Shown: positions 3,434 to 6,106 of the stretch, piece by piece
How the letters are laid out: every line of letters starts with the position of its first letter
How positions within the stretch are numbered: position 1 is the first letter of the stretch
Source: Candidatus Asgardarchaeum abyssi
GTDB taxonomy: Archaea; Asgardarchaeota; Asgardarchaeia; Asgardarchaeales; Asgardarchaeaceae
Assembly: GCA_040225955.1 (NCBI GenBank)
Contig: JBECUL010000066.1
Coordinates: forward strand, 1 to 10,625
Length of the DNA stretch: 10,625 nucleotides
Direction of reading: 5' to 3'
Translations under genes and position numbers: made by a program
Notes under the pieces: model-generated
What the model was told of the DNA's origin: nothing
Databases searched by the model: none
What the model saw: only the letters and a program-made list of their open reading frames with translations

Positions 3434-3922
3434 CTAAATCTCTTCGAGCATTTTATTTATTTTTTCTAGAGCATTTGATAGCTTATCCTTAAGAAATTTT
3501 AAGAGAATCAACTGATCACTCTTACTTAGTTTTTTTATAGCTTCAAGTCCAAAATCACTAATTAAAAAACTGATGGGTATTGGATGTCTAATGCCGCTTA
3601 CGACCATGTCAACATAATGTTTCATGAGTTGCTTTTCTCGCTCTTCTAAATACCTTAACCCCTTTTCAGTCATACTATACTTATATCTTGTTAATCCTCC
3701 TTTGCGATCTTCAATTTTTTTAACATAGCCGTGTTCTTCTAATTCGTTAAGAAGAGGGTATATTGTTGAATGTGACGGTTTCCAAGCACCACCAGTAATT
3801 TCTTTAATTTTCTTCATCAGATCATAACCATGACACTCACATTCTTTTAGTATTGAAAGAACTACGTATTCTATAATGCTTTTCTTCTTATCAAACGGAA
3901 GAAACTGAAAAATTCTCATCAT
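3434..3922 (-). CDS. PadR-family transcriptional regulator
   Basis: VLSILKECECHGYDLMKKIKEITGGAWKPSHSTIYPLLNELEEHGYV...RYKYSMTEKG is the PadR wHTH signature. GTGAGG SD lies just upstream; the start may be the second ATG (3919). Confidence 0.93.
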   Translation of the reverse strand: MMRIFQFLPFDKKKSIIEYVVLSILKECECHGYDLMKKIKEITGGAWKPSHSTIYPLLNELEEHGYVKKIEDRKGGLTRYKYSMTEKGLRYLEEREKQLMKHYVDMVVSGIRHPIPISFLISDFGLEAIKKLSKSDQLILLKFLKDKLSNALEKINKMLEEI

Positions 3923-4102
3923 TCCTCACAAAAATTCTCTGTGCCATATCACAAATAGATTCTTATTTTTTTGTTCTTATTTCTCAAGCTTATTAGATAT
4001 TAATTTTTCTATGAAAACAGTCAATTTTTGTCTAAAGCTAATTTTATTCTTCTTTATTTGTAGAGCTTACTTATAATTTTTAACTCTTACTAGGAAAAAG
4101 TT

Positions 4103-4127
4103 TTTGACAGGGCGTCAAATTTAATAT
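4103..4127 (+). promoter_or_regulatory. Palindrome TTTGAC-N5-GTCAAA abutting a TATA-like TTTAATAT box
   Basis: Perfect 6-bp arms at 4103-4108 and 4114-4119. TTTAATAT at 4120-4127 begins 28 nt upstream of the GGGG that opens the hairpin. Confidence 0.45.
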
Positions 4128-4147
4128 TTTTAAATCATTTATATTTA

Positions 4148-4205
4148 GGGGTACGGCAATTATTTTGTTCTGGGGCATACGCTACTTATCGCTGTACCTC
4201 TTTTT
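4148..4205 (+). ncRNA. Candidate small structured RNA (~53 nt plus T5 tail), family not recognised
   Basis: 5' GGGGUACGGC pairs with 3' GCUGUACCUC (10 bp, two G-U wobbles that work only on the + strand). It is 49% GC (26/53) against a nearly all-AT upstream flank, is followed immediately by TTTTT, and has a TATA-like box at -28. Confidence 0.5.
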
Positions 4206-4239
4206 AAATCACTCATTCTCGGATGGCCCTTTCTTAATA

Positions 4240-4270
4240 GAAACATATAAATTTTGATTGAGTAATCAAA
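4240..4270 (+). promoter_or_regulatory. BRE/TATA (GAAACA-TATAAAT) followed by operator-like palindrome TTTGATT-N4-AATCAAA
   Basis: TATAAAT at 4246-4252. Perfect 7-bp arms at 4253-4259 and 4264-4270 sit between the TATA box and ATG 4274. Confidence 0.55.
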
Positions 4271-4273
4271 TAT

Positions 4274-6106
4274 ATGGGGATTGTCATGCTTTTAGAAAGC
4301 TTAGTATTAGTGATCTTGTTATATATGATAAACTTTTGTTCATTAAGCAGATTTCTAAAAGGAGAAATCAACTTTAAGAAAATATTTCTTACTCCTTCCA
4401 GAGTTGTAGCTGCAATCATAGGAATTGTCCTATGGGCAATTCTATATTTTTCAACAATACCTCTATATTTATTCATCTTGATTATAATAGTGGCGAGAAT
4501 GGGTTTCATACTTCCTGCAGAAATTCTTTCTCTAGGTTTCAAACTAGAGTGGACATCCGAAGAACCAAGAAAATATAAATTAGTTCCTAAAAGTATGCGA
4601 GAGTCCAAAAAGCCATTAATTTTAGTAGCACTTTTAATAATTTCGATCTCTGCTGCGTCAGTAATATGGATTGGAATTGATAGACCAGTTGCCAACGCAG
4701 TTGCTTTTAACCAAACAATTAAAATCATTGAGAACGAGCCTTTTCTAAAAAATGAAATTCCAGCTGGCATGATGAGATTGGTAACACCAGAGCTAGCAAG
4801 AAGTATTGCAGAGCAGCATCTTTCATCGTTTGGCAGTAACATGGAAGTAAAGGGAGTGCATTTAAGTATAATAAACAACACTCTGGTTTGGGTTGTAGCA
4901 GTAGGATCTACTAACACATTTGCTGAAAATTACATCCAAGGTATCGTAGTTGTTAAAGCTAGTGATCCTCTTGCCGAACCTATATTGATAAAGAAACAAT
5001 TCAATATAGGTGAGGGTCTTTTCTTATTCAATGAAATTCATCTACATTCTTATGAGCGCAATCCTGTAGACTGTTATGGTACAGCTTATATTACACAAAC
5101 ACCAGATGGCGACTGGGTATATATTGTAACTCGATACTATGTTGGTCCAGATTTGATCGAGAGAGCAGATGGAATCATAATTTATAACCCGGATGGTACA
5201 ATAAAGGAAGAATACTCTATGGATGAAATTCCCGAGTGGGTTCCACAGCTTTATGATGAGGTTTGGTTAGAGGGGAAAATCAGCCAGTGGGGAAGCTTTA
5301 GGCGTGGAGATACATTTGACTTTTGGGCTAGAGGTTTCCTATGGATACAACCATCAAGAGATTTGGTTGAAATAAGTGAAGATTTGCGATATATTCAATC
5401 GCCAGACACAGGTCGAATGATTGGAATTGTTACCGTACATCCTGCGGCATCAGATCGTACTCTTGCAGGAGTGTTTGTTATTAATACTAGTGGCATCTTT
5501 TATTACGACTATCGTAAGTTCAATTACATAAGTGGACGTAGTGCGATAGATTATGTGGAGGGAAGACTTGTTCAACCGGCTCAAGGTTTCTATTATGGAA
5601 CTATGCCATTACTCTATGCAATTAAAGTCAACAATGAAACAAGGGTTGCTTGGTTTGTGCCAATTTATTGGGCACAATATAGTGAGGAGGAAGAACGTAT
5701 AACTTTCATTAGATTTGCTGGTCTAGGTATCGTTGATGCTTTAGATCCGAGTTATATTGTTGTAAATACTAACATTCAAGGAAAAAACGGACCGCAGGTA
5801 GTTAATGAAACAATCACATTATTCAAAAGCTTATTTGGTGTTGCACCTAAAGTAGAGAAAAAGACAGTTGATATCATTGCAAACGTTACCAATGTTTATC
5901 AGTATATATACAATGGTATGACACACATAGTTCTGGAACTTGACAACTCCACGTATCAATACATTGAAGGAACACCCGATAAATTAACTCCTAATGAATG
6001 GTATGAACTCCTAGCAACCAAAATAGGCGATAGAATCCATGCTAAGATAGAGCAAACCGATGACGGAAAATGGATTATCGTAGAATTCGATAACTTAGAA
6101 ATTTAA
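4274..6106 (+). CDS. Membrane-anchored cell-surface protein of unknown function (N-terminal TM helices, large ectodomain, probable C-terminal OB-like domain)
   Basis: 610-aa ORF with 3-4 N-terminal hydrophobic helices and 7 N-x-S/T sequons in the soluble part. Motifs YSMDEIPEWVPQLYD, PLLY and terminal KIGDRI...FDNL recall an uncharacterised family also found in Firmicutes. Start is ATG 4274 (leaderless) or ATG 4286 (after GGGGA). Confidence 0.82.
   Translation: MGIVMLLESLVLVILLYMINFCSLSRFLKGEINFKKIFLTPSRVVAAIIGIVLWAILYFSTIPLYLFILIIIVARMGFILPAEILSLGFKLEWTSEEPRKYKLVPKSMRESKKPLILVALLIISISAASVIWIGIDRPVANAVAFNQTIKIIENEPFLKNEIPAGMMRLVTPELARSIAEQHLSSFGSNMEVKGVHLSIINNTLVWVVAVGSTNTFAENYIQGIVVVKASDPLAEPILIKKQFNIGEGLFLFNEIHLHSYERNPVDCYGTAYITQTPDGDWVYIVTRYYVGPDLIERADGIIIYNPDGTIKEEYSMDEIPEWVPQLYDEVWLEGKISQWGSFRRGDTFDFWARGFLWIQPSRDLVEISEDLRYIQSPDTGRMIGIVTVHPAASDRTLAGVFVINTSGIFYYDYRKFNYISGRSAIDYVEGRLVQPAQGFYYGTMPLLYAIKVNNETRVAWFVPIYWAQYSEEEERITFIRFAGLGIVDALDPSYIVVNTNIQGKNGPQVVNETITLFKSLFGVAPKVEKKTVDIIANVTNVYQYIYNGMTHIVLELDNSTYQYIEGTPDKLTPNEWYELLATKIGDRIHAKIEQTDDGKWIIVEFDNLEI

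What the first reader, a model, noticed from the sequence alone, without database searches (positions are those of the whole stretch)
4120..4205. Candidate stand-alone small RNA gene: promoter, GC-rich closed stem, U-rich loop, T5 terminator
Seen: TTTAATAT at -28; a transcript starting GGGG; a 10-11-bp terminal helix with two strand-specific G-U pairs; an internal AAUUAUUUUGUU tract; a possible mini-hairpin GGC-AUAC-GCU; then TTTTT. The downstream gene has its own TATA, so this need not be its UTR. Known: GC-rich islands in AT-rich thermophile genomes typically mark structural RNAs. It lacks C/D boxes (RUGAUGA, CUGA), an ACA tail and a tRNA cloverleaf. Inference: an unclassified ~55-nt RNA. 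The single-stranded AUUUUG resembles an Sm/Lsm-binding site (speculative), which would be notable in an Asgard/TACK host.
Basis: partly seen in the sequence, partly recalled or inferred. Interest (0 to 1): 0.7.

Follow-up and report, generated by a model that had tools for sequence, protein, structure and literature searches.

The report
Broken insertion-sequence end, not sRNA gene
The hairpin is real and evolutionarily conserved, but it is the cut-off left end of a 1341-base jumping gene read on the opposite strand, with the transposase start codon in its loop, so it is not a host small-RNA gene.

Summary
The stretch is not unique. Window 4102-4230 is a truncated, frameshifted copy, on the minus strand, of positions 1-134 of a 1341-bp insertion sequence. 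That IS has 23-bp terminal inverted repeats and a 426-aa zinc-finger/HTH transposase.

The genome holds at least 9 copies of the hairpin module, 4-5 full IS copies that break contigs, and about 13 short MITEs sharing the same ends with 7-8-bp target duplications.

- The "T5 terminator" is the reverse of a TATA-like box 23 nt upstream of that ATG.
- The "TATA at -28" lies in codons 19-22.
- The U-rich loop is the complement of codons 2-7.

The stem is under selection in the IS family. It is 96% paired across 8 copies, four pairs change on both sides, and a relative with about 40% protein identity keeps a perfect 14-bp stem.

I read it as a transposase-expression control fold. I could not decide between a sense fold-back and an IS10 RNA-OUT-like antisense RNA, and no expression data could be obtained. 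Other notes of this scan had already recorded this IS and its MITEs on other contigs.

The parts
4102..4230 (-). Truncated, decayed left end of a 1341-bp insertion sequence (IS positions 1-134)
   Evidence: Local alignment to the full copy L035:174-1514 covers IS 6-134 = window 4225-4102. blastn and the covariance model find homologous copies on 10 or more other contigs.
4208..4230 (-). Left terminal inverted repeat, 18 of 23 positions kept, with four of the five mismatches in the outermost five bases
   Evidence: Compared by eye with the 23-bp repeat at L035:174-196 and 1492-1514 and with 40 copies of the motif in the genome.
4201..4208 (-). TATA-like box (TTTAAAAA on the - strand) 22-23 nt upstream of the transposase ATG.
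   Evidence: The same box and the same 22-23-nt spacing occur in four IS subfamilies: L035, L037-39, L040 and L041. Promoter function is inferred, not shown.
4188..4200 (-). Non-coding arm of the stem, between the TATA-like box and the start codon (the 5' arm on the transposase strand)
4176..4178 (-). Transposase start codon, inside the hairpin loop
   Evidence: The minus-strand translation begins MPQNKIIAVPL..., and I count 17 of its first 18 residues identical to the 426-aa relative P0002. tblastn places P0002 residues 1-27 on 4178-4098.
4148..4160 (-). Coding arm of the stem (transposase codons 7-11, I-A-V-P-L)
4077..4178 (-). Remnant ORF of 33 codons. Transposase homology runs to about codon 27 with a 1-nt frameshift near codon 19, then stops.
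   Evidence: Six-frame translation and alignment to the IS. No further homology upstream of 4102.
4120..4127 (+). TATA-like octamer 28 nt upstream of the G-run. It is a candidate outward (antisense) promoter and lies in transposase codons 19-22.
   Evidence: Sequence. Equivalent A/T-rich boxes occur at the same place in L035 and, more weakly, in L037. Function untested.
4148..4205 (+). It would overlap the first 31 nt of the transposase reading frame.
   Evidence: Geometry only. No expression data could be obtained.

Best explanation
Window 4102-4230 is a dead fragment of an insertion sequence. It holds the first about 134 bp of a 1341-bp IS lying on the minus strand: terminal inverted repeat, TATA-like box, hairpin, start codon and about 27 codons of the transposase. 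The fragment is cut off at 4102, is frameshifted, and has lost the tip of its inverted repeat. The hairpin is a conserved part of that IS family. One arm lies between the TATA-like box and the start codon, the ATG sits in the roughly 30-nt loop, and the other arm is codons 7-11.

Shown: the homology, the copy number, the TIRs and target duplications, the coding frame, and the covariation of the stem.

Inferred: the function. I think the fold limits transposase production at the RNA level. My leading version (about 40%) is a sense-strand fold-back. A transcript from the element's own promoter would start at or next to the ATG and lack the upstream arm. Any transcript reading in from host DNA carries both arms and closes the start region into a stem-loop. 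Outside promoters therefore cannot switch the transposase on, as in IS10, IS50 and IS200.

A second layer (about 30%, not exclusive) is that the mirror-image + strand RNA is made and acts like IS10 RNA-OUT.

In the window itself there is no transposase left to control, so this copy is most likely an inert relic (about 75%).
For: Multi-copy: 13 blastn matches in the genome, and 9 full modules by covariance model.

Sharp outer boundary: the copies end at a 23-nt motif that is also the inverted repeat of about 13 short (97-100 bp) MITEs, seven of them flanked by clean 7-8-bp target duplications.

Full IS: L035:174-1514 has 22/23 inverted repeats and an intact 426-aa ORF.

Full copies in this genome: four contig ends carry its right end and encode transposase residues 386-426, three at 100% and one at 98%. 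Five contigs carry its left end (C16 internally near its start, C177, C131, C74 and C55 at contig ends).

Transposase N-terminus: it is conserved at protein level down to 42% overall identity, and the window encodes it.

Stem: 96% of cells are paired across 8 copies, against 35-66% when the partners are slid. Four pairs change on both sides, and 0 of 500 shuffles reach the observed covariation score.

Distant relative: an IS with 39-44% protein identity has the same order of parts (repeat, TATA-like box, arm, ATG in the loop, arm) with a perfect 14-bp stem of different sequence (z -6.1 and -8.7).

Spacing: the TATA-like box lies 22-23 nt from the ATG in four subfamilies.

Precedents: IS200 has a left-end terminator, an SD-sequestering stem and the antisense art200 (PMC4513863). 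IS10 has RNA-OUT (PMC5006887).
Against: No transcript data.

The ATG lies in the loop, not in the duplex, unlike the textbook fold-back structures.

The genome as a whole uses Shine-Dalgarno leaders and shows no TATA peak at the leaderless distance. A start-codon-proximal transcription start for this gene rests only on the conserved spacing.

More distant relatives have only a weak stem (L040, z -0.95) or none (L041).

Wobble pairs favour the antisense strand in most copies but the sense strand in the C70 copy. My own tally is about 11 to 4, which does not settle the strand.

The IS family is not classified: NCBIfam IS1, ISL3 and IS1249 models score far below their cut-offs.
Confidence: 0.85

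Rival explanations
1. RNA-OUT-like antisense RNA. The IS makes a roughly 55-60-nt + strand RNA from an outward promoter inside the first codons of the transposase gene. It folds into the stem-loop, ends at the T-run next to the inverted repeat, and pairs through its loop with the 5' end of the transposase mRNA to block translation. The solo copy in the window could still make it and act in trans.
For: The geometry matches IS10. A TATA-like box lies 28 nt upstream of the G-run, a stable stem follows, the loop is complementary to the ATG and the following codons, and a T5 run lies directly 3'. The overlap with the reading frame would be about 31-34 nt, compared with 35 nt for RNA-OUT (PMC5006887). 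Most wobble pairs fit this strand: 8 to 1 in the first alignment, three more in the frame-broken copy C5:8223-8320, and the type-4 stem lengthens to 18 bp only on this strand (-37.6 against -29.0 kcal/mol). Antisense RNAs over transposase 5' ends are known from archaeal transcriptomes (PMC6523106).
Against: The T5 run and the -28 box are each explained by the other strand (a TATA-like box and A/T-rich codons). In the 40%-identity relative the T-run shrinks to T3 and the upstream box is weak. The wobble bias is not significant once one allows that only the non-coding arm is free to change, and the C70 copy points the other way. No Rfam match, RNA-OUT included. No expression data.
Confidence: 0.3
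2. Stand-alone host small RNA gene of a new class, possibly Sm/Lsm-bound.
For: The promoter-like box, stem and T5 are all present. No known family matches. The fragment has lost its transposase, so any remaining activity would be host-side.
Against: The sequence is a fragment of a mobile element with many copies. Its sequence conservation follows the transposase reading frame. There is no orthologous locus to compare: the transposase was not found in 399 other genomes of the phylum except for three distant homologues. The Sm-like tract is the complement of codons.
Confidence: 0.04
3. DNA-level or insulating role. The palindrome acts in DNA, as a cruciform or protein-binding site for transposition. 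Alternatively, the stem plus T-run stops transcripts leaving the element so that they do not run into neighbouring genes.
For: The stem is perfect on both strands in the intact copies, which DNA-level selection would also give. IS200 carries a bidirectional terminator in its left end (PMC4513863).
Against: G-U-type substitutions are tolerated in several copies, including the intact L035 element. This fits RNA better than DNA. The roughly 99-bp MITEs transpose without the module, as their target duplications show, so it is not needed for transposition in cis.
Confidence: 0.1

Closest known systems
IS10/Tn10 left-end control: RNA-OUT antisense RNA and fold-back inhibition of read-in transcripts
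   Same: The control module sits in the first about 90 bp of the element. Inward and outward promoter-like boxes face each other. A stem-loop has its loop complementary to the 5' end of the transposase message. The overlap is about 31-34 nt, against 35 nt in IS10 (PMC5006887).
   Different: The host is archaeal, with TATA-type boxes instead of -10/-35 elements. There is no sequence or Rfam similarity. The stem is 13-14 bp with a roughly 30-nt loop. The start codon lies in the loop. No transcript has been observed.
IS200 left end: SD-sequestering stem-loop, antisense art200 and an end-proximal terminator
   Same: A conserved inverted repeat spans the translation start region, and an antisense RNA could arise from the same DNA. 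The purpose would be to keep transposase very low (PMC4513863).
   Different: IS200 is a Y1 (HUH) transposon without terminal inverted repeats. Here the element has 23-bp TIRs, 7-8-bp target duplications and a zinc-finger/HTH transposase with weak IS1/ISL3-like similarity. Only the type-4 relative has an SD-like hexamer in the arm.
IS1 / ISL3 / IS1249-type DDE insertion sequences
   Same: N-terminal zinc finger plus HTH, a single long ORF, TIRs of 23 bp starting with GG, and 7-8-bp target duplications. Weak NCBIfam hits to these three models.
   Different: All scores are far below the curated cut-offs (35.9 against 180, 26.8 against 100, and 19 against 300 bits), and there is no Pfam catalytic-domain hit. 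Family assignment stays open.
Solo IS ends and IS-derived MITEs
   Same: A non-autonomous leftover of an IS in an intergenic region. The same genome holds true MITEs of this IS.
   Different: The window copy has only one, damaged, inverted repeat and no target duplication. It is a truncated fragment, not a mobilisable MITE.

Membership tests
TIR-type insertion sequence (fragment of one) | Terminal inverted repeats at both ends of the full element | tested here: met
   L035:174-196 and 1492-1514 are 22/23 identical as inverted repeats. The window keeps 18/23 of one repeat at 4208-4230 (by eye).
TIR-type insertion sequence (fragment of one) | Transposase ORF between the repeats | tested here: met
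   426-aa ORF in L035. Relatives P0001-P0004 align over the full length. The window encodes only residues 1 to about 27, with a frameshift.
TIR-type insertion sequence (fragment of one) | Target-site duplication | tested here: met
   Clean 7-8-bp direct repeats flank the MITEs on C10, C16, C20, C24, C40, C47 and C93. None is seen for the window copy (truncated) or for L035.
TIR-type insertion sequence (fragment of one) | Several copies at unrelated sites | tested here: met
IS1 or ISL3 family | Transposase reaches the curated family score | tested here: not met
   For P0001, NCBIfam ISL3 gives 35.9 bits (cut-off 180), IS1 26.8 (cut-off 100) and IS1249 19 (cut-off 300). No Pfam DDE domain.
MITE | Two inverted repeats and a target duplication around a short non-coding body | tested here: not met
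   Only one damaged repeat. Homology stops at 4102 and no second repeat lies upstream.
RNA-OUT (Rfam family) / RNA-OUT-like antisense regulator | Match to the Rfam model | tested here: not met
   No hit at gathering score or at E up to 10.
RNA-OUT (Rfam family) / RNA-OUT-like antisense regulator | A discrete antisense transcript that overlaps the transposase translation start | not testable with these tools
Read-in fold-back (IS10/IS50/IS200 type) | Upstream arm lies outside the element's own transcript, and the downstream arm lies at or after the start | tested here: inconclusive
   The upstream arm lies between the TATA-like box and the ATG in types 1, 2 and 4. The transcription start is inferred from the 22-23-nt spacing only. 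The genome shows no general leaderless signal.
Conserved structured RNA element | Base pairs kept through compensatory change | tested here: met
   13 pairs, 96% paired, 4 pairs with changes on both sides, slid controls 35-66%. The type-4 stem differs at two pairs on both sides.
C/D box, H/ACA sRNA or tRNA | Box motifs or a cloverleaf | tested here: not met
   Rfam and ARAGORN are negative.
IS200/IS605 right end with TnpB guide RNA | Lies downstream of tnpB, with no TIRs | tested here: not met
   TnpB-like genes exist elsewhere in the genome. This module, however, sits at a TIR and upstream of a different transposase.

The most novel reading that the evidence does not exclude
This unclassified IS family of an Asgard-like archaeon carries an RNA-OUT-type antisense gene at its left end. 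Cut-off solo ends such as window 4102-4230 and C5:8223-8320 keep promoter, stem, loop and T-run although their coding frame is broken. They would survive because they still supply the antisense RNA in trans and so damp transposition of the intact copies, as a primitive copy-number-sensing silencer.
Probability: 0.15. Interest if true: 0.55.

Novelty: new member of a known kind. Interest (0 to 1): 0.3.

Why it matters
For annotation, it removes a false new small-RNA gene and shows that the signals a sequence-only reader took for a gene are the mirror image of a transposase start region. For biology, it documents a start-region hairpin kept by compensatory change in an unclassified archaeal IS family, in a genome with a eukaryote-type actin. 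Transposase self-restraint by fold-back or antisense RNA is well worked out in bacteria. In the archaeal literature I retrieved it appears only as transcriptome-level antisense signals. A clean, covarying example gives a testable case.

Tried and rejected
1. TnpB guide-RNA (IS200/IS605 right end) idea. The sharp 3' boundary and the contig-end copies suggested it. It was rejected when the boundary motif proved to be a terminal inverted repeat and the adjacent gene a different transposase.

2. Armless or split tRNA idea, from the 7-bp acceptor-like stem. ARAGORN and Rfam are negative, and the coding frame explains the sequence.

I used one JGI metagenome scan and one genome-collection scan instead.

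5. Orthologous locus or IS in relatives. The nearest genomes held are only of the same phylum. The transposase was found in 3 of 399 other genomes, and only as distant homologues.

6. Strand choice from wobble pairs. It was 8 to 1 for the + strand in the first set, but the neutral expectation is about 9 to 4 because one arm is coding, and the C70 copy favours the other strand. I treat this as undecided.

7. Genome-wide support for leaderless starts. None was found: the genome is Shine-Dalgarno-led.

8. Hairpin in more distant IS relatives. It is weak in L040 and absent in L041.

Full report
**Observation**

- A TATA-like octamer lies at 4120-4127.
- A G-run starts at 4148.
- A terminal helix pairs 4148-4157 with 4191-4200. 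It has two G-U pairs and extends to 13 positions with one A.C mismatch.
- The loop is A/U-rich, with a 3-bp inner hairpin, and T5 lies at 4201-4205.

The + strand folds at -15.9 kcal/mol, z -2.96, and none of 200 shuffles does as well. The - strand folds at -9.7 kcal/mol, z -2.67. Rfam finds nothing at gathering score and nothing near it in E-value mode. ARAGORN finds no tRNA.

**The stretch is not unique**

A search of the window's own genome (189 contigs, 2.6 Mb) with 4100-4230 gave 13 matches at 75-90% identity, confirmed with blastn. Aligned, the copies share a sharp outer boundary, after which every flank differs.

The last 23 bases before that boundary occur about 40 times in the genome. 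In about 13 places two of them face each other as inverted repeats around a body of about 55 bp. Seven of these 97-100-bp elements are flanked by clean direct repeats of 7-8 bp. These are MITEs with target-site duplications, so the motif is the terminal inverted repeat of a transposon.

**The opposite strand is coding**

On contig C16 the minus strand of the module opens a reading frame whose ATG is the reverse complement of the "GGGGCAT" in the loop. It continues into a CxxC...CxxxH zinc finger and a helix-turn-helix.

A database search found 426-aa full-length relatives, P0001-P0004, with 96% to 51% local identity to that fragment. They align end to end, and the first 30 residues are conserved even in the most distant of them.

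One JGI metagenome contig (L035) holds a complete element at 174-1514, which is 1341 bp with 22/23 inverted repeats and an intact ORF. In IS coordinates the order of parts is:
- repeat, 1-23
- TATA-like box, 23-30
- arm, 32-44
- ATG, 54-56
- arm, 75-87 (codons 8-12)

In the window's genome four contig ends carry the right end and encode residues 386-426, three at 100% and one at 98%. Five contigs carry the left end. This means 4-5 full copies whose bodies were not binned.

**What the window holds**

Window 4225-4102 aligns with IS positions 6-134. The minus-strand frame from 4178 reads MPQNKIIAVPLNINDLKI, and I count 17 of those 18 residues identical to P0002. It then shifts frame by one base and loses homology at 4102. 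The inverted repeat (4208-4230) keeps 18 of 23 positions, and four of the five mismatches lie in the outermost five bases. There is no second repeat and no target duplication.

The window therefore carries a truncated, immobile IS end lying between a divergent PadR-family gene (3434-3922, minus strand) and a 610-aa ORF (4274-6106, plus strand).

- T5 is the reverse of the TATA-like box.
- The -28 box lies in codons 19-22.
- The mini-hairpin covers the complement of the ATG and codon 2.
- The U-rich "Sm-like" tract is the complement of codons 2-7.

**The stem is nevertheless selected**

In an alignment of eight copies the 13 pairs are 96% paired, against 35-66% when the partners are slid by 1-3 columns. 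Four pairs change on both sides, and no shuffle of 500 reaches the observed covariation score.

The strongest single case is an IS whose transposase is only 39-44% identical (L037, L038, L039). It has the same order of parts and a perfect 14-bp stem that differs from type 1 at two pairs on both sides. It folds with z -6.1 on the sense strand and -8.7 on the antisense strand. L035 gives z -6.6 and -3.8.

Further out the stem fades. L040 has a 10-bp stem around its ATG that is not better than shuffles, and L041 has none. A covariance model built from the alignment finds nine full modules in the genome.

**Mechanism**

The TATA-like box lies 22-23 nt upstream of the ATG in four subfamilies. At the usual archaeal spacing (established knowledge) that places the transcription start at or beside the ATG. 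The upstream arm would then be absent from the element's own message and present only in transcripts that read in from outside. Those transcripts could close the start region into a stem-loop. This is the logic of the IS10, IS50 and IS200 protections (PMC4513863; the IS10/IS50 part is from my own knowledge).

Several points weigh against this:
- The ATG is in the loop, not in the duplex.
- The genome at large is Shine-Dalgarno-led, with no sign of common leaderless starts.
- Nothing is known about transcripts.

It needs an outward box at the right distance, a stable stem, a loop complementary to the 5' end of the message, and a T-run. The overlap would be about 31-34 nt, against 35 nt in IS10 (PMC5006887). 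Antisense RNAs over transposase 5' ends are reported from archaeal transcriptomes (PMC6523106).

Wobble pairs lean to this strand. The count is 8 to 1 in the first set. Three more occur in C5:8223-8320, whose frame is broken and whose repeat is lost. The type-4 stem is 18 bp only on this strand.

Three things weaken that lean. One arm is coding, so the neutral expectation is already skewed. The C70 copy shows three wobbles on the other strand. In the distant relative the T-run shrinks to T3.

I put the sense fold-back at about 40%, the antisense RNA at about 30% (the two can coexist), a DNA-level or insulating role at about 10%, and the rest unknown. The MITEs move without the module, so it is not needed in cis for transposition.

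**Comparison and membership**

The element meets the definition of a TIR-type IS: repeats, transposase, target duplications and many copies. It reaches no curated family score. For P0001 the NCBIfam scores are ISL3 35.9 against 180 bits, IS1 26.8 against 100, and IS1249 19 against 300, and there is no Pfam catalytic domain. Its family therefore stays open. The window copy is not a MITE. It matches no Rfam family. It works, as far as can be inferred, like the left-end control modules of IS10 and IS200 without being related to them.

**Host**

The genome encodes a full-length actin homologue at 448 bits. This agrees with earlier notes of this scan calling it Asgard. A VPS28 search was empty, also in the controls, and so is uninformative.

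**Earlier notes**

Other notes of this scan had already described this 1341-base IS and its MITEs, and start-covering hairpins in other IS of the same genome. I reached the same IS independently and checked those points here.

**Limits**

No transcript evidence exists for either strand, and the set of independent copies is small.

**Verdict**

The stand-alone sRNA reading is replaced by an IS-end relic. The conserved hairpin is a modestly interesting archaeal example of a known kind of transposase control.

Noticed in passing
G000 C177:614-859 and 25 or more other contigs (e.g. C55:413-658, C14:44129-44372, C3:12950-13191): A second, unrelated repeat family of about 245 bp, present in at least 25 copies at 83-98% identity. 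It was not examined further.
   Followed up: no
G000 C16:282-439 and C46:15088-15185: Two copies of the hairpin module lie about 65-70 nt upstream of what look like tRNA genes (C16 from about 507, C46 from about 15240). The tRNA calls were made by eye only.
   Followed up: no
window 4230-4252, and 41 repeat-end flanks genome-wide: The damaged IS end at 4230 sits 14-15 nt before a TATA-like box (4244-4252) in front of the 610-aa ORF. In 14 of 41 outer flanks of this repeat a TATA-like motif starts at +15 to +22.
   Followed up: partly
G000 C14:44376-44402 and C24:873-899, outer flanks: Two ends of this IS/MITE family have homologous flanks for about 45 nt. Either the element inserted twice at the same site of another repeat, or a composite unit was duplicated.
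   Followed up: no
G000 C40:12584-12717: A 134-bp element bounded by both repeats. Its left part matches the IS right-end sequence and its right part holds only the non-coding half of the stem. It is a recombinant or deletion derivative.
   Followed up: partly
G000 C1:120-260 (minus strand): A deletion derivative that appears to join transposase codons 1 to about 25 directly to the C-terminal VANH motif region. Its hairpin has decayed.
   Followed up: no
G000 C34:706-1142: A 437-bp internally deleted copy bounded by both repeats. It holds transposase pieces (residues about 4-38 and 199-270) with three TAG stops.
   Followed up: partly
L035:160-173 and 1515-1530: The one complete IS copy has no target duplication. 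The metagenome contig may join flanks of different copies.
   Followed up: no
G000 C47:11021-12130 (minus strand): A full-length actin-family gene, 448 bits against Pfam Actin. This fits an Asgard-type host.
   Followed up: no
G000 C20:784-1644 and C70:102-404: More distant paralogues of the same transposase type (about 30% identity). The C20 one is split over two frames.
   Followed up: no
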